From positions 257,362,001 through 257,426,000 of the forward strand of contig OZ024742.1 of assembly GCA_964016885.1 (NCBI GenBank): 64,000 nucleotides of DNA, read 5' to 3'. This DNA comes from Eledone cirrhosa. Taxonomy: Eukaryota. How positions within the stretch are numbered: position 1 is the first letter of the stretch; each line of letters starts with the position of its first letter. The notes beneath the pieces are model-generated. The model was not told the DNA's origin. It did not search any database and saw only the letters and a program-made list of their open reading frames with translations. Shown piece after piece: positions 12,626 through 59,541 of this stretch. The position numbers and the translations under genes were made by a program.

Positions 12626-12817
12626 ATATTTAACACAGGATTTCAGCTCAGAAATATTGCAAAGTAAATACAATTACGAAGTATATATTCGTCTGATGTT
12701 CCCGTGCGGGCACTGATGAAACACCAGACAAACAGGACTCTACAACTATCATTCATAAAGGATATTTAATGCCTTTGGTTCCGACCACTTATTGTCACGT
12801 CCATCGGTGACACATAC

Positions 12818-12848
<31 letters not shown>

Positions 12849-13150
12849 AATTGAAACAAAATGAAAACGAAATTTCATTTCTCACTCTTAGTATGGCACT
12901 TACTTAAATGTAAGTATGCATGTATACGTACATACATATATGTATACAGACGTACAGTAGCATGCACATATATATATATATATATACATATATATATACA
13001 TATGCATACAGGTACACATACATATATGCACGTATCAGTTTAGCGGCGCTAACGTCGCTTTGTTCGTTTGTAAACAAACTGAACAGCCTGAATTTATGCC
13101 ATACGGTGTTAAGGCAACCACGTCACCTTTTTGTTCAACACTGACACAGG

Positions 13151-13195
13151 AACGATGTACTAGTTTCAAGCTTGTTAGCTATCATCAGCACCGTT
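13151..13195 (-). ncRNA. Minimal type I hammerhead ribozyme, copy 1
   Basis: RNA AACGGUG-CUGAUGA-UAGCU(AACA)AGCUU-GAAA-CUAG-UA^CAUCGUU: 7-bp stem I, stem II, palindromic ACUAGU stem III, GUA cleavage triplet. Confidence 0.9.
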
Positions 13196-13616
13196 TACCC
13201 ATCTGCCAGATAGTTGAACGTTCGAAAGTATATACTTTCCTTATGAAAATTAACGGCTGAGCAGCCTAATTTGCATATTGAGTGAGTTAAATCGGTCAGG
13301 CATACCGAAAACGATAAATTGAAACAAAATGAAAACGAAATTTCATTTCTCACTCTTAGTATGGCACTTACTTAAATGTAAGTATGCATGTATACGTACA
13401 TACATATATGTATACAGACGTACAGTAGCATGCACATATATATATATATATACATATATATATACATATGCATACAGGTACACATACATATATGCACGTA
13501 TCAGTTTAGCGGCGCTAACGTCGCTTTGTTCGTTTGTAAACAAACTGAACAGCCTGAATTTATGCCATACGGTGTTAAGGCAACCACGTCACCTTTTTGT
13601 TCAACACTGACACAGG

Positions 13617-13661
13617 AACGATGTACTAGTTTCAAGCTTGTTAGCTATCATCAGCACCGTT
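13617..13661 (-). ncRNA. Minimal type I hammerhead ribozyme, copy 2
   Basis: Identical to copy 1, offset 466 bp. Confidence 0.9.
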
Positions 13662-14082
13662 TACCCATCTGCCAGATAGTTGAACGTTCGAAAGTATATA
13701 CTTTCCTTATGAAAATTAACGGCTGAGCAGCCTAATTTGCATATTGAGTGAGTTAAATCGGTCAGGCATACCGAAAACGATAAATTGAAACAAAATGAAA
13801 ACGAAATTTCATTTCTCACTCTTAGTATGGCACTTACTTAAATGTAAGTATGCATGTATACGTACATACATATATGTATACAGACGTACAGTAGCATGCA
13901 CATATATATATATATATACATATATATATACATATGCATACATGTACCCATACATATATGCACGTATCAGTTTAGCGGCGCTAACGTCGCTTTGTTCGTT
14001 TGTAAACAAACTGAACAGCCTGAATTTATGCCATACGGTGTTAAGGCAACCACGTCACCTTTTTGTTCAACACTGACACAGG

Positions 14083-14127
14083 AACGATGTACTAGTTTCA
14101 AGCTTGTTAGCTATCATCAGCACCGTT
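14083..14127 (-). ncRNA. Minimal type I hammerhead ribozyme, copy 3
   Basis: Identical to copy 1. Confidence 0.9.
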
Positions 14128-14548
14128 TACCCCTCTGCCAGATAGTTGAACGTTCGAAAGTATATACTTTCCTTATGAAAATTAACGGCTGAGCAGCCTA
14201 ATTTGCATATTGAGTGAGTTAAATCGGTCAGGCATACCGAAAACGATAAATTGAAACAAAATGAAAACGAAATTTCATTTCTCACTCTTAGTATGGCACT
14301 TACTTAAATGTAAGTATGCATGTATACGTACATACATATATGTATACAGACGTACAGTAGCATGCACATATATATATATATATACATATATATATACATA
14401 TGCATACAGGTACACATACATATATGCACGTATCAGTTTAGCGGCGCTAACGTCGCTTTGTTCGTTTGTAAACAAACTGAACAGCCTGAATTTATGCCAT
14501 ACGGTGTTAAGGCAACCACGTCACCTTTTTGTTCAACACTGACACAGG

Positions 14549-14593
14549 AACGATGTACTAGTTTCAAGCTTGTTAGCTATCATCAGCACCGTT
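14549..14593 (-). ncRNA. Minimal type I hammerhead ribozyme, copy 4
   Basis: Identical to copy 1. Confidence 0.9.
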
Positions 14594-14873
14594 TACCCAT
14601 CTGCCAGATAGTTGAACGTTCGAAAGTATATTTAGCGCCGCTAAACTGATACGTGCATATATGTATGTGTACCTGTATGCATATGTATATATATATGTAT
14701 ATATATATATATATGTGCATGCTACTGTACGTCTGTATACATATATGTATGTACGTATACATGCATACTTACATTTAAGTAAGTGCCATACTAAGAGTGA
14801 GAAATGAAATTTCGTTTTCATTTTGTTTCAATTTATCGTTTTCGGTATGCCTGACCGATTTAACTCACTCAAT

Positions 14874-14881
14874 ATGCAAAT
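14874..14881 (+). promoter_or_regulatory. Octamer motif ATGCAAAT within the array unit (also as ATTTGCAT in three direct units)
   Basis: Exact consensus match about 75 nt upstream of the hammerhead; function is inference. Confidence 0.3.
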
Positions 14882-14954
14882 TAGGCTGCTCAGCCGTTAA
14901 TTTTCATAAGGAAAGTATATACTTTCGAACGTTCAACTATCTGGCAGATGGGTA

Positions 14955-14999
14955 AACGGTGCTGATGATAGCTAACAAGCTTGAAACTAGTACATCGTT
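14955..14999 (+). ncRNA. Minimal type I hammerhead ribozyme, copy 5 (inverted arm)
   Basis: CTGATGA at 14962-14968, GAAA at 14983-14986, predicted cleavage after A14992. Confidence 0.9.
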
Positions 15000-15300
15000 C
15001 CTGTGTCAGTGTTGAACAAAAAGGTGACGTGGTTGCCTTAACACCGTATGGCATAAATTCAGGCTGTTCAGTTTGTTTACAAACGAACAAAGCGACGTTA
15101 GCGCCGCTAAACTGATACGTGCATATATGTATGTGTACCTGTATGCATATGTATATATATATGTATATATATATATATATGTGCATGCTACTGTACGTCT
15201 GTATACATATATGTATGTACGTATACATGCATACTTACATTTATATATATATATATATATATATATTGGAAAATATGTGAGATCCTTGGTACAGTTAGGT

Positions 15301-15470: not shown

Positions 15471-16607
15471 TATCAAATATATAGATTTACATATACATAA
15501 ACTAGACAGGGCCATAGATATATATATGTGTGGTTTTGACAAAAATTCCCGATGTCGCTCAATGACGAATTAATTAATTAAATAATCAACAATCAGAGCA
15601 ATATACAAGAAAGTACTTCCATAGAATGATTTGATAAAATATATACAGTATTTCCTCTCCCAATCTGCATAATCAACCACACAAAAAATCAATTAAACAA
15701 GGCTATAATAATAAAAGGCACCTATGAAGAAACAATAGATAAATCAACAACGGCTATTTTATTCGCGATCAAGAGCCACAGTATTACTAAAAGCCGTGGA
15801 AATCGATTAGATATATAGCCAATCCATACACAATTGTGTACAAAATCAAAGTTAGAAGAAAAAATGTATATAAGCATACCAAAATTATGTCTCTACCTCA
15901 AGGGATTTCATTCGCTTTTCGGAAATATCCGATCAAGGATAAATTTACGAGTTTTGAAATCATCAGGAAACACACTCAATTGGACAAATATTTTTCTTGA
16001 TTGATCCCCACCAGAAACGAATTCAAAATGGCTAAGAACTGTGACATGGCTAGTGGTCAAGTCAGAAAGTTTGTGATTGGTGCCTTACGTCAAATGGGCT
16101 GGTGGCTAGAAAGCACAGCCGAATACCGCCTAAAATTAATTCTCAACCATATGGGAGATTATCAAATATATAGATTTACATATACATAAACTAGACAGAG
16201 CCATAGATATATATATGTGGTTTTGGCAACCATTCAGCATGTGGCTCAATGACGAATTAATTAATTAATTAATCAACAATCAGAGCAATAATCAAGAACG
16301 TACGTCCATAGAATCATGTGATAAGATATATACAGTATTTTCTCTCACAATCAGCATAATCAACCACACAAAAAATCTATATATCTAATCGATTTCCACG
16401 GGATATTAGAAATGCTGGGTAAATATTCAGTGGCTGTTGATCACGAATAAAATAGCCATCGTTTATTTATCTATTGTTTCTTCATAGGTGCATTTTAATC
16501 TTATAGCATTGTGTAATTGATTTTATGTGTGGCCGATTATGCTGATTGTGAAAGGAAATACTGTATGTATTTTATCAAATGATTCTATGGATGTACTTTC
16601 TTGTATA
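15471..16607. repeat. ~690-bp-period non-coding element with terminal redundancy and inverted segment, (TA)n-flanked
   Basis: 15471-15690 recurs at 16160-16377; 16378-16607 is the diverged reverse complement of about 15603-15818. Confidence 0.8.
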
Positions 16608-17923: not shown

Positions 17924-18223
17924 AGAACAAAAGATGGTTAAAAGAGTTTTTGTTCTTATATATTATGTATACTTCAGTCCTACAAACTGTAGAGTGCTTC
18001 TTATCCGATATCTGCATTGCTTTATTGTACTAAAATAAAACTCACCTCTTACATATATATATATATATATATATATATAAATGTTGAGTTGTTTACCGAT
18101 ACCTCAGTATGCAGATTGCAGCACTCGACGAGTAGGCAAGTTGGTTTGTTTACTCCGGAGTAATGTAAAATAATTAATTTAAATATGTTAAATTTGGCTT
18201 CATTTATTATAAATTATAGATAT

Positions 18224-18278
18224 ACTGGTATATATATTTCGGTGACAGCCATCATTGGCTGTGACCTCTTCAGGCAGT
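18224..18278 (-). ncRNA. Type I hammerhead ribozyme in the PLE pLTR (slightly decayed)
   Basis: ACUGC-CUGAAGA-GGUCACAGCC(AAUGAU)GGCUGUCACC-GAAA-UAUAUA-UA^CCAGU; one mismatch each in stems I and II (the sister copy has the pairing GCAGU). Confidence 0.75.
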
Positions 18279-18652
18279 CCGAATTGGTGTGGGGAAGACA
18301 GGTACACAGGTTGTTGAAGTGTGTTTTACTCTATAAATATATCGATATGTCCAGCTCCTTGTTGTGTTGTTATTTCCTTGAGGAATTGGATTCATATGAG
18401 TTAGAAAAAACTAATTGCGGCGTCATAGGACACGCTTGCATCCCATTGGTCAGTTGTGAGAACATTCCTAAGTCAGAAGTCTATAGAAATGTTTCTGAGG
18501 CAAGCAAATCTGTTGAAGTTGTTTTTGTTTAAGTACAGCTGACCTCCTTCATTGTGTTGGTAGTGGTAGTGGGAACGCAAACAGACCCAGAAAACTACCC
18601 TATATTACGCAACGACAACCCCACATTAGGCACTGTGTGATCGACCCCGTCC

Positions 18653-19060
18653 TGCAAATGCAAAACCCCTATATTATGCCCCCTTAGTAATGAATGCCTA
18701 AGGAATAACTTAATATACGGATGTAGATTATAAACCCACAACTCTGAGCACATTTACATAGGAGCCACATCAGCGAGCTTCAAAGACCGATGGTATAGCC
18801 ATCGCCATTCCTTTAATAGGGAGGACAAAAGGAAAAGTACGGCTCTTTCCGAACTGATCTGGAAGCTCAAACTGGACAGCACCCTGTACTCTCGGCCTGG
18901 TCCCAAATCAGGAAAGTACCACCTTATAGAGGGGGATCTGGCATCTGCAAACTATGTCTGAGCGAGACCCACAAGATACTCAGCGGTGGAAGCAGCCTTA
19001 TAAATCTCAGGACCGTCTTCTTTGGTACATGTAGACACCTCATTGCCAGGAACTTCCTCA
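18653..19060 (+). pseudogene. Penelope-like GIY-YIG endonuclease remnant (Cys-rich, Naiad/Neptune-like)
   Basis: CKC...CPL...CL..NLIYGC..*...IYIGATSASFKDRWYSHRHSF...STALSELIWKLK, a frameshift, then CKLCLSE...LINLR...CRH. Confidence 0.85.
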
Positions 19061-19263
19061 AGCTATATGGATAATAACAACATATTGGGATGGGAACTTC
19101 CCTCAAGCTATAAGGGCAGTTACCCCGCCACACCGAGCCCAAAGTAAACCACCACCTACACAGTCACCAATCGACTCCTGTAGCTACACATACATATATA
19201 TATATGTCCATACATAGATACTGTTGTTTAAAATTATACATACATAGATACTTACATGTATGT

Positions 19264-21861: not shown

Positions 21862-22001
<140 letters not shown>

Positions 22002-22027
22002 CGGCGATGAATCGTGTGTCGAAACAA

Positions 22028-23344
22028 ATATTGTTATACTTTGAGAGGGTCATATTTGTGTAATATTGCCAGAATTAATAACAGAACAAACTCACTGTTT
22101 GGTTGGTTTTCGCTTGTCGCTTCTGTATCTTTTATATCGGTAATCTAACTTACTCTGTTCTCAATGTTGCCATTGACTGACCGACGGTAAAAAATAATAC
22201 AGATACAATATAGACACAAACACATATATATAGTTTATCATAAATCTTTCGGTGCACATCTGCAACATCGTCAGTGGTGTTATATTTTCCTCCTGTTGTA
22301 TTGTATGTCTACGCCATTTTTATTCAGTCTGTCTATATATTTATTTTTTTTTTATTTCCTTGTTTGTTTATTTTATTTTGTCTTCTTTGCGCATGCGTTT
22401 GCGTGTGTGTATAGTGTTTTGTTTGCTGTGTGATGGGTGGCTCGTGTGTGTTTATGTGCTTGTTGTTATTGTGGTTGTGTATGTATTTATTTATTTATTT
22501 ATTTTATTTTATTTACTTATTTATACTTCTCTTAGGTCAGTGTTGTTTTTTTGGGTGTTTTTGTTATTCCATTCATTCTTTCTGTTTAGCCTTGGTCTTC
22601 TAATTTCTATGTTGTCTATGTTACCGTCGTGTTGTTGTCTAGCATGTTCGTATAGTATACTATACGAACATGCTAGACATCAACATGACAGTAACATAGA
22701 CAACATAGAAATTAGAATAATATCTAAACATAGAAATGACCCAGCAGATAGGCAAATCAGAGAGGCCAGTGATATAGAAATTAGAAGACCAAGGCTAAAC
22801 AGAAAGAATGAATGGAATAACAACAACACCCAAACAAACAACACTGACCTAAGAGAAGTATAAATAAAGTAAATAAAATAAAATAAATAAATAAATACAT
22901 ACACAAGCACAATAACAACAAGCACATAAACACACACTAGCCACCCATCACACAGCAAACAAAACATTATACACACACGCAAGCGCATGCGCAAAGAAGA
23001 CAAAATAAAATAAACAAACAAGCAAATAAAAAAAAATATATATAGACAGACTGAATAAAAATGGCGTAGACATACAATACAACAGGAGGAAAATATAACA
23101 CCACTGACGCTTTTGCAGATGTGCAACGAAAGATTTATGATAAACTATATATATATGTTTGTGTCTATATTGTATCTGTATTATTTTTGACCGTCGGTCA
23201 GTCAATGGCAACATTGAGGACCGAGTAAGTTAGATTACCGATATAAAGGACACAGAAGCGAGAAGCGCGAAAACCAACCAAACAGTGAGTGTGTTCTGTT
23301 ATTAATTCTGGCAATATTACACAAATATGACCCTCCCCAAGTAT

Positions 23345-23349
<5 letters not shown>
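22028..23349. mobile_element. Palindromic Penelope-like insertion (two inverted 3' ends) between (TA)n tracts
   Basis: Arms of about 630 and 690 bp with scattered substitutions, centred on CTAGCATGTTCGTATAGTATACTATACGAACATGCTAG (about 22656). The right arm encodes a GIY-YIG C-terminus (IEIRIISKH...RQIREASDIEIRRPRLNRKNEW). Degenerate CTGACGA...GAAA motif at about 22240-22280 (-) and 23100-23140 (+). Confidence 0.75.
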
Positions 23350-23387
<38 letters not shown>

Positions 23388-30064: not shown

Positions 30065-33000
30065 TCTATATATATAAAACAGAAGATTTCTGTCTGTTAG
30101 TGTAACCGCATGCATTTCAACATTTCACAACCGATTTGCATCAACTTTTATACATAGGTTTCTGAAGTAGTAGTACGCGTCATAGGGTATTTCATTTGTC
30201 CGTACATCGATTGTGGGGGGCCCCAGGGTCCGGTAGTACCATTAAGCCTCTCCCACAACCGATTTGCACCAAATTTCATACATGGAGTCCTATTACGCGT
30301 CGTAGGCTATTTTATTTTTCCATACATCGATTGTGGGGGGGGGGGGGTTCAGGCGCAGGTGGCCCCCTTAAGCCTCTCCCTTCAACTTATCTATTGAAGT
30401 TCACATTAACACTGCATTAGTACATGATAACTTTTGAAGTTTACGTTCGATCTTCGTTTTCACTTTCAAAGCACCAATCATTGTCGGATAAAATTTCAGA
30501 AATGTAAACATCTGATTCATTTGAAGATAAATCACTAATATTATCTGCTTTTTCTTGTTCATTTCGAATGTCGTCGAGTGTAAAAACTTGAAAATCGGTA
30601 TCGCTACATTCATAAGCCATGTTGATACAAAAAAAAATTCTGTTCTACTTTCAAAGTTAAAAAAATCACGTGATGTTTTAAGTTGTTTCACTATATTATA
30701 TTTTCGTGGTAAGGGCCTAATCTCGCAGTAATCTCGAATTGACGAGATTTTGATGAAGGTATTGTTTATTTTTAGAACGATATTTAAGTGTGGGTGTTCG
30801 GGTGGTTTTGGGCGGTTTCAACAAATGAAGGAGAAATAATTTCGGCTGGTTTGAAAACTAAAGGGTTAAAGTATGTTTAGTTAATGTGTTTATGGTCATA
30901 AGGTTCCAGTTTATCATGCTGTGATTTTTCGGCCATTTTGCCTTATCATGGTAAGTACTTACTTTGCGTTGCCCCTAACTTAAAAACTGAAATTTGACTG
31001 GTACACAAAATCTTGCAAAAAATACCCACTTTCTCAGACCACATAGATTTATCACATTTTTTCACAATTTAAATCCGTGATTTTTGGCTTACTTAAACGT
31101 TATTTGTCCACTATTTATCGTTCTCCCTGGTTAATTTTCTAAAAACAATGCCCTCCAAGGAAAGACACATCATTGGTTGATTATCTAATGATGCAAGTAG
31201 GTCTAAGCGAAGGTGTCTCACCGAAAATGTAAATACAACTGCAATCAGGCTCCCACCGAATGGTGTGCAGACGGCAACTGCAAGAGCGGAGGAGGATGAT
31301 AGTCGGCGTGAACTTCGATGGAACAAAAGTGCTGCCGCGACTGCTGCTGCTTGCGCACGAGGGGATGGAGGACGACGTGCCGTTCGACGTAGCAGGGACG
31401 CCGCTGCAACATTCGCTGCACGTCACGAGATGATGAAGGAGGACGCGCAGTTGACGAAGCAGGGATGCCACTGCCACTGCTTCTGCACGAAATACTGAAA
31501 CCATAGAGCAACGACTTTGCCGACTTCTGCAAAATGAACAGCGGCGATCATCGTTATATGTCATTTTTAGGACTTGCAATTCACGATGGCTGTTGAAGGC
31601 CTTTAACTACTGCCCCTCCTCCTACTACGCCGTCCATGCAGATATTCAAATTGGGGAAATGACCTCTACTTGCCAGTTTTGGTGTACGAAAAAGTGGCCA
31701 GGGGAGAGAGATGGAATATGCTGTTCAAACGGTAAAGTTAGACTACCTCCTATTCACGACCCTCCAGAGACATTGCAACTCCTTTTGACAGACACGACGA
31801 AGGTATCATCGAAGTTTCTGCGTAATATCCTCCGCTACAATTCCGCGTTTCAGATGACATCCTTCGGAGTAAATCCTGCCTCGGAACCTTTCAAGGTCCA
31901 GGGGCAGATTTACCACTTGATTGGTTCTATTCAGCCTCTTGAAGAAAAAGGATCCTCAATTTCTTCAGTTATACTTCGTTGGAAACTATCAGGTGCAGGC
32001 AGAGATGCAAAACTCTATTTCGTTCGAAACTAACATTGGAACCATAATAAAACTTCAAGAAATGCTTCACGACAAAAACAGCTATGTTCGCAGTTTCAAG
32101 TACGCTTTGGAAACAGCCACCGACGAAAACTTTAGTGTGGTCATACATGCTGACCGAAGGCCATCTGGAGAACACGCTGGTCGGTTCAACGCACCAACAT
32201 GTAATGAGATTGCTGCGATTATTTTTGGTGAACAGCACAAGAGAGATATCATTCTAAAGCACTGAGACAGCACATTACAGCGTATCAATGAGACATACAG
32301 GTCCTAGGATGCACTCCAGTATCCATTGCTATTTGTCAACGGGGAGGACGGATAACATTTCTGCATTGCTCAACATTCGGCAGGCAATGGTGAAGCACAT
32401 CTTAGGAAAACTGTCACCTGCATGGATTTCTACGCTTTCCGATGTATGGTAAGGGACAATTCATTCAACCATCTACACCGTTCTCGGGACCTTTTACAAC
32501 AATTTGCTGTTGATATGGCCGTTAAAATGGAGTGCGGGAGATTATGGTTCATTAAATTAAATCAAAAGAAACTTTGATCTGAATGCTACATTCGTCTACG
32601 CGATGGAATTAACAACGACGTATCCCCAGACAATTTAGGGCATGTGTGTATTTTGCCTTCAACGTTCACAGGGGGACCCTGATACATGCACGAGAGTCTC
32701 AGGACGTCATGTCCTACGTACGACACTATTGGCGGCCCGGCCTTTTCATAACGTTTACATGCAATCCCAAGTAGAAGGAGATTACAAACGAACTGTTCCG
32801 CGGTCAAGCGCCAAGGCACATGCACGATCTCATAGCAAGAGCTTTTCGCCCCTGAAATTATCCAAATTAATGGATTTATTAAAGAAAGGACAGATGTTTG
32901 GGCCTGTCAGGTACGACATGTAGATGGTTGAATGGCAGAAACGAGGGCTGCCGCATGCCAATATCTTGATTTGGTTGGTTACAAAAATTAGTTCAAACTA

Positions 33001-39254: not shown

Positions 39255-42110
39255 TGATCGTTTTATATCACTGATTCTGGCTTATGCTCTTACCACTTCT
39301 CAGAGTGTGGTAAATTGCTTACTTTGCATAGATGACAGTGGATCACCCTACCTATCACATCATGTCTCCAGCCTTTATAGTGAGTCTGGGCTAGGTGTTT
39401 ACACTCGGATACAATGTGAGCCAGGGTCTCCTCTCTCTCTCTCCACAGATCCTACACAGTGGGCTAGCCTCGTCCTTGTAAATATGGTGTTTCATCACTT
39501 CGTTCTGAGGGCCTGCTCTTGCGCAGCCATTAGCATTCCTTCTGTAGCATTTTAAAGCTTTCCCCTTTTTAACCAGTTCCATGTCTGTGGATCTCTAAAT
39601 TCAGTTTTCTCAAAGAAGCTACTATGAAGGGATTTTTCATGAAAGTTGCTCTACCTCCTTTTTGTTATTTCCTCCTTGGACATCCCCTGACCTATTGTCC
39701 TCTTCTTCAGAACAATCCTGACCATTGGCTCCCTACTGTCAGTCACATATTTGTGTAGGTTCTTTTTCTCCATCTTAACACAGTCCTCTATGCTGATAAG
39801 ACCTCTTCCACCTTCAGATCTCCTTAAGTAGAATCTATCGACATCACTCCTCTTGTGGAGCATGTTGTAGATAGTCAATAGCTTCCTAGTCTTCCTATCC
39901 ATTTGTTTTTGTTCAGCAACATTCCATCTCAGAATTCCTGCACTGTACCTAATAATAGACACAGCTCGGGAATGTACTGCACTTATAGCATTCCTACTGT
40001 TCAGATGTGACTTTAATACGCTCCTTACTCTCCGAATGTATTCACATCTTATCAATTCCTTCGTTTTTTTTGTACTTGATTCATCTGCCTCCAGAACACC
40101 TAAATATTTGTATCCTTCTTCAGTGTCAATTTCCTTTATCATCTCACCTGTTGGTCCTTGGATTCCGTTGCTTCTGCTCAATTTACCCCTCTTTATCACT
40201 AGGACTCCACAATTACTAATACCGAATTGCATACTTATATCATTGCTGAAAATACGGACAGTGTCAACAAGCACATCCAACTCCTTCTCACTCTTCCCGA
40301 AGAGCTTAAGATCGTCCATGAAAAGGTGGTGATTGATGGTAAGCTCTCCTTTTCTCAACTTGTATCATGCTCTCACTGTTTGCAGGGGCATCAGGGCAAG
40401 ACAAGACAACAGAGGTGACAAACTATCTCCCTGGAAGATACCTCTCTAGACCTTCACGCCTCCCAGGGTTCGCCACCTGATGTTAACTCTGTTTTCCAGG
40501 TCTTCATACCTTTGCTCAACAACTGCCTGATGTTATCTGCCACCTTGAAGATCTCTAGGCTTTTGGTTATCCAAGAATGAGGTACCATGTTGAATGCCTT
40601 TTTATAATCTATCCATCCCATGGCAAGACCAATGTGTCTCCTCTTGCAATTCTTCATTACCATCTTATCAATAAGTAACTGGTCCTTTGTACCACGGGAC
40701 TTCTTTCGGCATCCTTTCTGTTCGAACGGTAGCAAGTTGTTTGTGTGGAGGTGATGGTAGATTTCCTCAGACACAATGCTTGTTAACAGTTTCCACATTA
40801 CGGACAGACATGTGATAGGTCTACAGTTGGTAACATCATTACCCATAATTCGGTCTTTCATTACCAGAACTCTGGTACCTTTTGTCAACCACTCTGGTAC
40901 ATCACCCGACATCAAGCAGTCATTGAACATGGTTGTCAGTTTCGGGTGGAGGGATGTTATATGTTTAATCCAATACCCCTGCACACCATCTGGGCGTGGT
41001 GATTTCCAGTTGGTTAGGTTTTTGGCCTGTCCTTTAAGAGTTTCAACTGTGATACTCAAATCAGTTTGTTGGTGTGCTTGTTCACTAATCTCCTTTTTTT
41101 ACTGTCTCAATCCACACTGCCTGACCATTATGTTCAACACCCTGCACCCATATTCCTCTCCAGAATGTCTTGTCTGTTCCGCCTCAGGATTCAAGTCGTT
41201 GCCTCTTTCTTTCCCTTCAAGCTGTCCAAACAGCATCTGGTTATTGTCAAACATGCGGTTCTGTCTATACTGACTGACTCTGCTCTAATACCGCCTAAAC
41301 TTTGCACTTGTTGCTACAATGCGTTGCTTCAGTTCCTCTGTGATAATATTTAGCTTTTCACCCCTAGTTTTGTACTTTATTTCCAATCTATTTTTAGTTT
41401 CTATGTTTTGCAATGTCCCATTCAGTGGGGACACAAGCTTTCCAATGTCTTTTCTTATTTCCTTGATTTGACCATTCAGTCGTTTCTTCCACCTAGGTTC
41501 TGATCTTTCTTGTTTGTCGTTACCTCTCGCTTTTATGCCAAGTAATTTCCTCACCGCATTGGCTGTTGCTTTGAGGATACTGTTGCATTGGTGAAGGTTC
41601 CTCGCCTCAAATTATAGGATGACTTTGTTTACCTTAGGTGTTGTTTCTTTTAACTTTTTCCTGTCTACAAACTTAGGTTCATAGGTTTCCCACTATCATT
41701 GTTCATTTCATCTACCTCTAATTTCAGGATATCAACCAAATCTTGTCCTAGCCCGTAAGTATTCATTTCCACATTGGCCGTATCTTTGTTCCAGATGTTA
41801 TGTATCCGTTTCCTATAGCCTTTTTTCCATGTGGTTACTCTTCAGGTAGCATTCAATGACAGTTCTATTCAATTTTTTCGTCCAGTTGGTTCGTGTGCCT
41901 TCCCCCCTTCTTCTTCCTCCAGCACTAGCACTTGCTGGGTGAGAGACTTTTACATGACGTTCCAGTCTCCTCTTCACCGTCACTCGAACTGTTTAGGTTC
42001 GACATTTAAACACTCATATCGAGGATTGGTGAATGTATGGTTACATAACCATCGTTGATTTCCTCACTCCCAGTGATTTCATCACCCCCGGTGATTTTAG
42101 TGTGGCACCA
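39255..42110 (-). mobile_element. R4/Dong family 1 LINE, long decayed copy, 3'-truncated
   Basis: RPITCLSVMWKLLT, EQKGCRKKSRGTKDQLLID, WIDYKKAFNMVPH, HLFMDDLKLF, YKYLG, CRIC zinc knuckle; matches 28071-28230 and 29478-29780. The 5' boundary is approximate. Confidence 0.9.
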
Positions 42111-55050: not shown

Positions 55051-58000
55051 ATGAATACTGATAATAAAAGCAATTCGAATTTATCAAACAGTGAACTACA
55101 GCGGCGACGGGGTGCAGCCAGCAATGAAAAAAAACGGGCCGAACAACGCCATCGGAACGCCGAACTTCAGAGGCGAAGACGTGCCGCCATGACTGAAGAG
55201 GACCTGGCTGAACAACCCCACCGAAACACTGGAGCCAAGCAGCGTCGGCGCGATGGTTGAAGAAGAACTGCCTGAGCATCATCAGCTGATGGCCGGAATT
55301 CAGCAGCAACGGCATGCTGCGATGGATGGAGAGGAGCTGGCTGAACAGCGCGAGTGCAATACAGAAGTTCAGAGAACCAAAGTGCTCCTCATTCCAGTAA
55401 AGAGGCCAGAAGGCGAATGGATGATATTAAAAATGGATTATGGCAACCATGTCATTTTCAGATTGGTGGACGAGCAGATTGCCCACATTGTGGAGCATTG
55501 CTTTGGAGACACGAAAAGACGTGGACCACAATGTGCTGTCATAAAGGAGCAGTTCAACTAGAACCCTTGCGAATGCCGGATGATGAGGAGTCACCGGAGT
55601 TTAAAATACTAAGTATGTGAGGTGATCAAGGAGACGGAGATAGATTACTGCGCAAATATTCGCGGCAAATTAAAAATTCATTAGCTTTAGCATCGCAGAG
55701 AGTTAGTGAGATGATTGAGAGTGGAGCATGGCAACCGAATGTAGTCATTCAAGGCCGTTTGTATCATTGTATCGGTAATTTACAAGTTACCCCAGGAGAG
55801 AGGCCACGATTCACTCAAATTTACGTTAACGATCCAGATTATATTGAATCGGAGGAGAATATCAGGATCGGTTGGATGAAGTTTCCGGGAAATATAACTG
55901 AACTTGAACGGCAAAGGTTAAGTGATTTGATCCGTGATTTGCAATCATGGCCTAGACAGTGTAATCCTTATGTTATGGATTTCATGTTGGTGGCTGAACT
56001 GCAAAATGTTCAGCTGTGCCAAGGAATCAATAGGAACGGCCATATAATGCCCCTGAAGTATTTCGTGAAGTTGCAGTGTTGATGGACGATAAGCCTGGAT
56101 CGAGAGATATCGTCCTCAATCGCAGAGAAGGTGGTCTCAAGATTATCAATGAGTCAAATAGGGCATACGATCCATTGCATTATGTTCTTTTATTCCCAAA
56201 AGGTGAAAATGGATGGAACATGTCTGTTTATTTAGATGATCATGAGAATCAGCATCAACAGGGAGGTGGCAATAGACACAATAATTCGATTCGCGACTTT
56301 TACGCTTCCATTTGAACGAGGGGAATCAACAGAGGAATACGCTATTTCAAGCCAGCAGATTGTTCCAGGAATACTGTTGTATGGCATTAGCAAATATCGA
56401 ATATCAAAGGCTAAATTATATAGCTACACATAAGCAACATTTCAGAGCTGAATTGTATAATAATATACAGGATGCGGTAACAGCCGATGATGCCAATTAC
56501 AAGCAAATTGGTCGACGCATCATTTTGCCATCGTCGTTCATCGGTGACGCGAGATATATGAACATTCGCTATCAGGATGCAATGGCTATTGTCAGAAAGT
56601 TTGGAAAGCCAGATTTGTTGATAACGGTTACATGCAATCCTGAATGGACTGATATTTAGGATGCACTTTTGCCAGGACAACAGCCAAACGACGGTCCTGA
56701 TATTGTGGCAAGAGTATTCAAAGGATATCTGAAAAAGATAATGGATGATGTGGAAAAAGAGGGAATCTTTGGAAGTATAGTTGCTTTTACATACGTAATT
56801 GAATTCCAAAAAAGAGGATTACCACATGCACATTTGCTGATCATTTTATATAGAGATTGCAAATTGGGATGTGCTGAGGATGTCGACAGCGTTGTGGGTG
56901 CTGAACTGCCGGAGAATGAGGCACTACACAACTTGGTGGCAAAGTCAATGGTGCACAACCAATGTGGAGTGGCAAATAGGAAAGCGCCTTGCATGAAAAA
57001 TGTCCAATGCAGTAAGCACTTTCCGAAATCTTTTGTCACGAACACTTCCTGGAACGATGGGGATGCTCATCCCTCATACAGGTGGCGGTTTGGTCGAAAA
57101 TGTAAACGGTCGACAGGTTACAAATAAATGGGTTGTGCCATACAATCCATATTTGATTATGAAATATCGTTGTCATATTAATGTGGATATTTGTAGCCCA
57201 GTGAAAGCTTGCAAATATCTATTCAAATATATTTACAAAGATCATGATCGGGTAATGAGCAATGTCAGGAATGAGGAAGCGAACCAAGGAGATGAAGTTG
57301 GCAGGTTCCAGGATGTTCGCTCGATTGGATCTAGCGAAGCTTGCTGGAAATTGTTCCAATTTGATCTCAATGAACGCAAACCCAGCGTTCCATAAACTGA
57401 CGGTTCACTTAGAGAATAGGCAAATGGTCTGTTTTCAGGACACTAGAAGAGGTGTCGAAAGAATTGCTGACGCACCACCTCCTAAAACGGATTTAACTGA
57501 GTGGTTCAAGCATAATAGGGAACATGCTTTGAACCCGGATCAAAGGCAACTCTACTGCGATTTCTCTTCGCATTATACGTGCGATAAAAGGGAAAGAAAT
57601 GGAATGATAGAAAACAAAAGTTGAGATTCATGACTATTGGTCTGGTTTGTAATGTCCTTCCAGCATCTGGTGATGTCTTTTATCTCCGAATTGTGTTGCA
57701 TAATGATTTTTCGAGAGGTAAACAGAGCTTCGCTGATTTGAAAACAATCAATGGCGTGGAATAAGAAACATACCAGGCTGTGTGTCAGCATCTGGGACTC
57801 CTTCAGGATGACGCTGAATGGAATAACGCCATTCAGATGCCAGCTCAAATAAGGCAGTTGTTTGTCACGATTCCAGTATTCTGCAATCCTGCCGATCCAA
57901 GAGAGTTATTTGAACACCATTGGGGAATTATGGCTGATGATTTTAGGCTTCATCTTCAGGTCGATGATGAACATTTGATGAAAGCTATTGTTTTGCTTAA

Positions 58001-59541
58001 TATTGACTAACTGCTTGAAGTTCATTTCAAATGTTTAACAGATTTCAATTTGCCAATTCCTGATGAAGAAATGCGACATCGTGTCTTAGCATTGAACATG
58101 AGATTGCAGCTTAGACGGTTGCCCCTTGATCGGAGGGAACTATTCCAGTTTGATCCACTGGAACAGCAACGTATTATGGATGGACGTATGCCAATATTGA
58201 CCCAATCTCAGAGAGAATTGTTCGATGGCGTTCTCCACTCGATTTCCACTAATGAGCAACTTTGTGCTTTCATAGATGCTTCAGGAGGCACCGGAAAGAC
58301 ATTCTGTTTCAACACTATGTTATCGGCAGTCAGAGCTCAGAGGAAGATTGCTCTCCCTGTGGCCACCTTTGTGATCGCTGCCACTTTGCCGAGTGCTTCA
58401 AGGCTCCATTGGCTCCGGGTGAGTTGAGTGTCTGTAACATTACAGGACAAAGTCGACTCGCGGACCTTATACGCAATACGTCTCTGATTATTTGGGACGA
58501 GCTTCCAATGGCACATAGATATTTGCTGGAGGCATGGGACAGAACTTTGAGAGATATCTGCGGTAGTGACCTGCCATTCGATGGTAAGACTATCGTTCTT
58601 GGTGGCGATTTCAGACAGGTGCTACCAATTGTTAGCTATGCTCAAAGAGCGCAAATTGTCGATGCATGTCTGAAAAAGTCCCCGTTGTGGCGCCATTTCA
58701 GAGTTTTGCGATTACACGATAATATGCGACTTTGTATGTTCGGGCAAAACGAAGAGGCTGAGACATACAGCCGATGGTTGATTCACTTGGGAAATGATGA
58801 ATTGCCACACGTTGGTGATAATCAGACTGTAAGAATCCCAGACCATTTGGTCATGCCACTGGACCGCCAAGCATTGATTGACTGGGTGTTCCCTAATTTG
58901 AATGCTTTTGGGCAGAATATCTCCTGGATATCTGAACGCGTTATTCTAACTCATACGAATGCAACGGTCGATGAAATAAATTCACAAGTAGCCGGAAAGT
59001 TTCCTGGAAAGGACTGGTTGACCGTGAGTGCGGATGCAATGGAGTCTAATCAGTAGAACAATATGGATGTTCCGACTGAGTATCTGAATTCACTTCAAAT
59101 ACCCGGATTTCCCCCACATATTTTGAGGTTGAAAAAGGGTATGCCGATTATATTGCTTAGAAATATCAATCATAGAGTGGATATTTGCAATGGCACCAGA
59201 TTGATTGTTGAGAGATTGATTAAGGGGAGAGTTTTAGAAGATAAACTACCAGGCAGAGAGGAATCGGTTCTCATTCCGAGGATCATGCTGAGACCAAATG
59301 AAGATCTGCTGTCATTCATTTGGCAAAGGAGACAGTTTCCCGTCAATTTGGCCTTCTCCATGACTGTCAACAAGGCACAGGGACAGAATTTCAAGCCAGA
59401 CGGTGTCTACTTGAATGATCCAGCATTCGGCCATGGGCAACTGTATGTTGCTTCATCTCGAGTGTGCGATCCTGATGGTATAAAATTTCCACTAACAGAG
59501 GAACGACCTTGAATATTGGCTATAACGAAGCTTTGAGCTAA
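55051..59541 (+). pseudogene. Second Helitron-type Rep/helicase, essentially full length but with stops and frameshifts
   Basis: N-terminal R/E-rich repeats, CPHCGALLW..E...CC, YDPLHYVLLFP, IEFQKRGLPHAHLLII, KYLFKYIYK, DASGGTGKTF, IIWDELPM, GGDFRQVLP, QFPVNLAFSMTVNKAQGQ, HGQLYVASSRV. Confidence 0.92.

What the first reader, a model, noticed from the sequence alone, without database searches (positions are those of the whole stretch)
12830..15266. Array endpoints look like rolling-circle reverse transcription primed from two (TA)n ends
Seen: in hammerhead-sense orientation the two arms diverge from the junction at 14631/14632, and each 3' end runs into a (TA)n tract. The two 3' ends stop at different unit positions, about 310 and 250 nt past the cleavage site, both on short AT-rich microhomologies. 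Neither arm begins or ends at the ribozyme cut, copy numbers are non-integer (3.8 and 1.3), and the junction joins two short palindromes (GAAAGTATATACTTTC and TTAGCG-C-CGCTAA). Inference: both ends of a break in a TA tract primed cDNA on a circular (religated) or multimeric RNA, with RT passing the ribozyme site repeatedly.
Basis: inference. Interest (0 to 1): 0.75.

Follow-up and report, generated by a model that had tools for sequence, protein, structure and literature searches.

The report
Two-armed hammerhead retrozyme with Penelope ends
This is one young copy of a very abundant 466-base non-coding repeat with a predicted self-cutting RNA motif; its two back-to-back arms end at two fixed positions inside TA repeats, so a Penelope-type transposon enzyme likely copied one small, probably circular, RNA from both broken DNA ends.

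Summary
The anatomy is real: a 466-bp hammerhead-motif unit, 3.8 copies on one strand and 1.3 on the other, diverging from 14631/14632 into (TA)n tracts. The genome holds 10,122 exact copies of the 40-nt motif. The endpoints are not random. The 3' ends sit at two fixed sites, 251 and 310 nt past the predicted cut: 2,415 and 1,475 exact matches run into (TA)n there, against 0 at the cut and 2 at a better-microhomology site. In 93 of 94 resolved two-armed copies (108 examined) one arm uses each site. This is the published Penelope-like 'tail' signature. Both arms share one template (0.9% apart, against 4.0% between loci), and joints at the cut are seamless. A circular template is likely but unproven: one array repeats an assembly-unique ribozyme-breaking deletion in 5 of 5 joints, while another fits a mixed multimer better. 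Palindromes are not enriched at junctions. No RNA or empty-site data were obtained. Verdict: a new family of a known kind (non-LTR retrozyme); rolling-circle copying is already proposed in print. The scan noted this pattern before on other DNA of this genome.

The parts
12812..12848 (.). left target microsatellite, (TACA)n(TA)n
12846..14631 (-). left arm: 3.8 units, 5' phase 391, 3' end at the long fixed site (phase 310)
12846..12904 (-). 59-nt terminal 'tail' (phases 252-310), present at this end only
13152..13194 (-). type I hammerhead motif, predicted cut after 13158
   Evidence: activity untested
13618..13660 (-). type I hammerhead motif, predicted cut after 13624
14084..14126 (-). type I hammerhead motif, predicted cut after 14090
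14550..14592 (-). type I hammerhead motif, predicted cut after 14556
14631..14632 (.). blunt 5'-to-5' junction of the two arms (phase 391 | phase 106), 0 nt overlap
14632..15243 (+). right arm: 1.3 units, 5' phase 106, 3' end at the short fixed site (phase 251)
14644..14756 (+). TA-rich long hairpin inside the unit (about phases 118-230; one per unit), length-variable between copies
14956..14998 (+). type I hammerhead motif, predicted cut after 14992
15242..15266 (.). right target microsatellite (TA)n

Best explanation
The locus is a single young insertion of a non-coding 466-bp hammerhead-motif repeat whose two divergent arms end at two fixed unit positions inside (TA)n, and it was likely made by a Penelope-like (PLE) reverse transcriptase acting in trans, which would prime from both strands of a cut TA tract and copy one probably circular RNA. 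Shown: the layout, the two fixed 3' ends used one per arm, variable 5' ends, seamless passage through the predicted cut, the shared template of both arms, and short overlaps at most arm-arm junctions. Inferred: a PLE GIY-YIG endonuclease nicks both strands of (TA)n; one 3'-OH starts cDNA at internal site 310 and the other at site 251; each RT runs on for a variable length and passes the cut site repeatedly; the two cDNA 3' ends are joined, mostly through 1-6 nt of complementarity, and filled in. Least certain: the template is a ribozyme-cut, religated monomer circle (about 55%) and not an uncut multimer. Confidence in the PLE-type two-site priming alone is about 0.9.
For: Fixed ends, genome-wide exact counts: site 310 into (TA)n 1,475; site 251 into (TA)n 2,415, reversed control 4; cut site into (TA)n 0; phase-394 site, which has longer TA microhomology, 2. 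In set 1 (picked on the ribozyme motif only) 78 of 95 arms end at phases 244-256 or 300-312. Pairing: 93 long+short, 1 short+short, 0 long+long and 14 unresolved among 108 two-armed copies (five calls of the script were corrected by reading the ends). PMC11167929 shows a PLE RT starting at two internal RNA sites with the 'tail' between them and cutting both strands; PMC8557442 describes the inverted 5'-truncated copy, the one-sided tail and the (TA)n bias. Coding PLE fragments in the same genome show the same two-end pattern. One template: divergence 0.82% within arms, 0.89% between arms, 4.0% between loci; 14 of 353 diagnostic sites differ between arms against 38% for random pairs. Rare variants are fixed across all covering units, for example L034 7 of 7, L117 4 of 4 (both arms), L095 6 of 6 and L035 4 of 4. 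Long arrays show no core differences (L135 14 segments, L116 12, L154 8). L154 carries a 7-nt deletion at the cut in 5 of 5 joints; these are all 5 matches in the assembly, and its four full units are identical. Junction overlap of at least 1 nt in 29 of 31 non-insertion junctions against 54% by chance, p=2e-6.
Against: No RNA evidence of any kind: transcription, cleavage and circles are untested. PMC11167929 found that hammerhead cleavage is not needed and that uncut RNA is the main substrate in vitro, and in the 2026 preprint only 1 of 9 retrozyme dimers self-cleaved. L080 repeats a three-unit variant pattern twice in one arm and once in the other, which a monomer circle does not predict; eight insertions have rare variants in some but not all units, besides the composite L103. 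Deletions are not enriched at the cut (7 loci against 10 and 9 at two control sites). L154 is the only array-wide lesion found; in the other multi-unit loci read, the lesion is in one unit, or in 2 of 3 in L216. Its breakpoint is ambiguous by one base. The excess of 5' ends just 3' of the cut (2.4-fold pooled, post hoc) did not reach significance in the pre-specified replicate (1.6-fold, p=0.28). No autonomous partner was identified. This locus's own junction has no overlap.
Confidence: 0.55

Rival explanations
1. Same PLE-type two-site priming, but the template is a linear, uncut multimeric transcript of an existing array; the hammerhead plays no part in making the template.
For: PMC11167929: ribozyme mutants insert equally well in vitro. 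Seamless joints (288 of 305 joints exact, the rest mostly substitutions) fit this equally well. The L080 variant pattern shared between arms fits a mixed multimer. Stops at phases 1-5 are rare (3 of 198 arms).
Against: Linear copying cannot turn one variant unit into many, yet rare variants are fixed across whole arrays and both arms. The L154 deletion has no donor array in the assembly; a donor could be lost or lie on another haplotype.
Confidence: 0.28
2. The template is a ribozyme-cut linear monomer, and RT jumps from its 5' end to the 3' end of the same or another monomer at each round.
For: Modest excess of 5' ends at phases 1-30 (23 ends, rate ratio 2.4 pooled, post hoc). L154 could be one trimmed molecule used repeatedly.
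Against: Joints are base-exact in over 10,000 copies, with only 12, 6 and 7 length variants found around the cut. Units within an insertion do not mix subfamilies. No 3' ends at the cut.
Confidence: 0.07
3. A short two-armed insertion was later expanded at DNA level by unequal crossover or slippage.
For: The preprint 10.64898/2026.07.22.740005 favours local amplification for satellites. L080 shows a repeated three-unit block.
Against: Copy number does not rise with internal divergence (Spearman -0.08, p=0.47, 81 insertions). Several of the longest arrays have no internal differences. Rare variants are mostly single-unit (129, against 24 partly shared, among sites covered by at least 3 units; 14 of the 24 come from one composite locus). 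Variants are fixed across inverted arms, which crossover cannot homogenise.
Confidence: 0.07
4. One reading: priming at arbitrary unit positions chosen by AT microhomology with the broken (TA)n end.
For: Both ends of this locus finish on ATTTA next to (TA)n.
Against: Ends are fixed at two sites and paired one each; better microhomology sites are almost unused.
Confidence: 0.02

Closest known systems
Animal non-LTR retrozymes (Cervera and de la Pena 2020, PMC7229834; Li et al. bioRxiv 10.64898/2026.07.22.740005)
   Same: Non-coding, low-GC tandem unit with a type I hammerhead in each unit; thousands of dispersed arrays. The papers propose circRNA templates, tandem cDNA and PLE mobilisation.
   Different: At 466 bp the unit is slightly above the 150-450 bp of PMC7229834 but within the 51-972 bp of the preprint. 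In what I read, these papers do not describe two-armed insertions with paired fixed ends. Expression and cleavage are shown there and untested here.
EN+ Penelope-like elements, insertion anatomy (Craig et al. 2021, PMC8557442; Frangieh et al. 2024, PMC11167929; Cervera and de la Pena 2014, PMC4209133)
   Same: Partial tandems, an inverted 5'-truncated copy at the 5' side, a tail at one end only, two internal RT start sites, AT-rich or (TA)n targets, and a hammerhead with palindromic helix III. PMC4209133 already suggests circles as templates for more-than-unit reverse transcription.
   Different: No RT or GIY-YIG ORF in the unit; the tail is 59 nt rather than 30-40; no sequence match to any PLE 3' region I could test.
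L1 twin priming (recalled, not from a call)
   Same: Two cDNAs primed from opposite target strands give an inverted 5' part joined by microhomology.
   Different: In L1 the second priming site varies and the pieces do not overlap; here both sites are fixed and both arms can exceed one unit.

Membership tests
non-LTR retrozyme | tandem unit of a few hundred bp with a type I hammerhead motif in each unit | tested here: met
   the motif is read from sequence, with no Rfam hit at gathering score
non-LTR retrozyme | non-coding, no LTR, low GC | tested here: met
   no ORF of 150 aa or more in the array; GC about 36%
non-LTR retrozyme | dispersed, high copy number | tested here: met
   10,122 exact 40-nt matches, reversed control 0
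non-LTR retrozyme | self-cleavage of the RNA | not testable with these tools
   local fold z -1.04 and not in the catalytic form; palindromic helix III suggests a dimeric form (PMC4209133 passages)
non-LTR retrozyme | expressed as linear and circular monomer RNA | not tested
   no read data were laid
PLE-mobilised non-autonomous element | [quoted passage not shown] | tested here: met
PLE-mobilised non-autonomous element | inverted 5'-truncated copy next to the 5' end; microsatellite target | tested here: met
   53 of 80 loci picked on the long end have an adjacent inverted arm; 70 of 76 ends run into (TA)4
PLE-mobilised non-autonomous element | shared terminal sequence with an autonomous PLE in the genome | tested here: inconclusive
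   many GIY-YIG PLE fragments lie in the fetched loci; none of their 3' regions matched the unit apart from nested copies; only 1.2 Mb of 3 Gb was examined
autonomous PLE | ORF with RT and GIY-YIG endonuclease | tested here: not met
   no ORF in the unit and no shared coding body upstream of 53 unpaired arms

The most novel reading that the evidence does not exclude
The family is a genomic record of rolling-circle target-primed reverse transcription: a PLE RT dimer starts at two fixed sites on one ribozyme-cut, religated RNA circle from both strands of a TA break, each half rolls on independently, and a circle trimmed at its ligation joint was copied five times into one locus.
Probability: 0.5. 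Interest if true: 0.65.

Novelty: new member of a known kind. Interest (0 to 1): 0.4.

Why it matters
How Penelope-like elements build their tandem and inverted insertions, and whether their hammerheads make the template, is stated to be open in PMC8557442 and PMC11167929. A small non-coding family with thousands of young copies gives exact predictions (start sites 251 and 310, one per strand, read-through of the joint) for an in vitro test of circle against multimer. It also ties retrozymes to PLE machinery by insertion anatomy, independently of sequence homology. The element class and the rolling-circle idea are both already published, and this locus is an ordinary member.

Tried and rejected
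DNA search of the genome with a 321-bp piece gave no candidates because the tool skips very common words; pattern searches replaced it. Rfam: no hit. Run search: no RNA holder listed. No reads or contigs were laid, so the empty site and expression are open. Random-phase ends: rejected. Palindrome preference of 5' ends: not seen, although 4 of 41 junctions join both arms within 2 nt of the same phase against 0.6 expected, three of them at palindromes. Enrichment of lesions at the cut: not seen. Pile-up of 5' ends next to the cut: seen post hoc in a sample that lacked 14 already-held loci; after adding them back p=0.05 for long arms and p=0.28 in the replicate, so it is suggestive only. The 5' phases for the replicate set were read by hand from the table, and ends inside the TA hairpin were left out of these tests. 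Autonomous partner: not found. Arm lengths within an insertion are uncorrelated (rho 0.17, p=0.26, 48 pairs), which argues against one arm being a fold-back copy of the other in general. A hammerhead variant tally returned nothing because my pattern was mis-sized; covariation was not tested.

Full report
Observation. The stretch 12846-14631 is a 466-bp tandem array of 3.8 copies with 99% matches, followed by an inverted 612-bp piece. Each unit holds a type I hammerhead motif, with predicted cuts after 14556, 14090, 13624 and 13158 on the minus strand and after 14992 on the plus strand. Counting from the cut, the left arm runs from phase 391 to phase 310 and the right arm from phase 106 to phase 251. 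Both 3' ends enter (TA)n, the junction has no overlap, and the arms differ from one reference unit by three substitutions and one TA insertion. The motif has no Rfam hit, and its local fold is no better than shuffles. The circular fold of the unit is strong (z -8 against 60 shuffles), and its longest helix is the TA-rich hairpin. Ribozyme activity is inferred, not shown.

Family. The genome (3.0 Gb) has 10,122 exact copies of the 40-nt hammerhead motif. I fetched three samples from contig C1. Set 1 is all 50 loci behind the first 100 motif matches. Set 2 is 80 further loci from the first 94 long-end matches; the other 14 were already in set 1. Set 3 is 40 further loci from the short-end list. 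The family has several subfamilies, and the window copy belongs to a young, nearly invariant one.

The 3' ends are fixed. In set 1, picked without regard to ends, 44 of 95 arms (the window's two included) end at phases 300-312 and 34 at 244-256; the other 17 end elsewhere, many of them at alignment breaks in the expanded TA hairpin. Genome-wide, 1,475 long ends and 2,415 short ends run into (TA)n, against 0 at the cut and 2 at phase 394, where the unit offers longer TA microhomology. Among 108 two-armed copies, 93 pair one long with one short end, 1 is short+short, none is long+long and 14 are unresolved (with five script calls corrected by reading the ends; even uncorrected, 88 of 94 gives p<1e-19).

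This is the Penelope-like signature. PMC8557442 (passages read) describes partial tandems, an adjacent inverted 5'-truncated copy, a 30-40 bp tail often at one end only, and (TA)n targets. PMC11167929 (parts 1-2 of 4 read) shows a PLE protein cutting both strands of AT-rich DNA and starting reverse transcription at two internal RNA sites with the tail between them. GIY-YIG-bearing PLE fragments are common in the fetched loci, and the hammerhead-bearing ones end at two sites before (TA)n in the same way. None matched the 466-bp unit, so the partner is unidentified.

The 5' ends and junction. The 5' ends are spread over the unit. Among 198 arms there are 233 crossings of the cut, 23 stops at phases 1-30 and 3 at phases 1-5. 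The excess at 1-30 was noticed post hoc and did not reach significance in the pre-specified replicate (p=0.28). Of 82 junctions, 41 had both ends outside the TA hairpin and a measurable gap: 31 overlap or are blunt and 10 have inserts. Overlap of at least 1 nt occurs in 29 of 31 against 54% by chance. Palindromes are not enriched overall, but when both arms stop at the same palindrome they join through it.

Template. Divergence is 0.82% within arms, 0.89% between arms and 4.0% between loci, and the two arms agree at 339 of 353 diagnostic sites (sets 1 and 2). Rare variants are fixed across all units in several insertions. The 22 'both arms' sites include 12 from one locus (L083), so they represent 11 loci. 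Long arrays with no core differences exist, and copy number does not track age. These facts require a step that turns one unit into many at or near insertion. The best single case is L154: a 7-nt deletion that removes part of the ribozyme core at the cut, present in 5 of 5 joints of identical units and nowhere else in the assembly. It is one case; lesions are not enriched at the cut, and those in other multi-unit loci are nearly all single-unit. Against a pure monomer circle, L080 shares a three-unit variant pattern between its arms, and PMC11167929 found uncut RNA to be the main substrate in vitro. I put the circle at about 0.55 and the uncut multimer at about 0.28.

What is in print. PMC7229834 (abstract, passages and Discussion read) defines animal non-LTR retrozymes, shows their circles and proposes tandem cDNA copying by a PLE or LINE RT. 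PMC4209133 (passages) proposes circles as templates for more-than-unit PLE reverse transcription. The preprint 10.64898/2026.07.22.740005 (parts 1-3 of 5 read) links retrozymes to PLE pLTRs. Searches listed no paper that reports paired fixed ends in retrozyme insertions. The library lacks most subscription journals, and I read no supplements; Fig. S9 of PMC7229834, Fig. S2 of PMC11167929 and the preprint's tables may bear on this. The L1 twin-priming comparison is recalled.

Earlier scan notes (read after my analysis) describe the same two-armed pattern for several families in this genome, probably including this one. They are not independent support.

Verdict. Its value is as a clean, countable record of PLE-type insertion. 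No expression or allele data were obtained. Interest 0.4.

Noticed in passing
window 22001-23351: Inverted pair of PLE 3' fragments between (TA)n tracts, with endonuclease-end-like reading frames and a hammerhead-like motif (22274-22242, minus). It has the same two-armed layout, and relatives in fetched loci end at two sites about 45-50 nt apart.
   Followed up: partly
window 18080-19200: Broken PLE endonuclease fragment (Cys linker and GIY-YIG-like motif, with stops) and a hammerhead-like motif at 18273-18231 on the minus strand.
   Followed up: partly
window 55621-59512: Helitron pieces (Helitron_like_N, PIF1 helicase); a further Helitron-like stretch near 31455-32033 (not scanned).
   Followed up: no
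window 39651-41098: LINE-type reverse transcriptase fragments (RVT_1).
   Followed up: no
L154 (G000:C1:184444600-184450600): Young insertion with an assembly-unique 7-nt deletion at the ribozyme cut in all five joints.
   Followed up: yes
L080-L081 (G000:C1:69575200-69595000): 19-unit insertion in which a three-unit variant pattern occurs twice in one arm and once in the other; unexplained by a monomer circle.
   Followed up: partly
L037, L056, L095, L200: Both arms start at the same phase on a palindrome of the unit, giving a perfect fold-back junction.
   Followed up: partly
window 15480-15512 and 16169-16200: A direct repeat of about 30 bp flanks a 690-bp stretch right of the array; not examined.
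   Followed up: no
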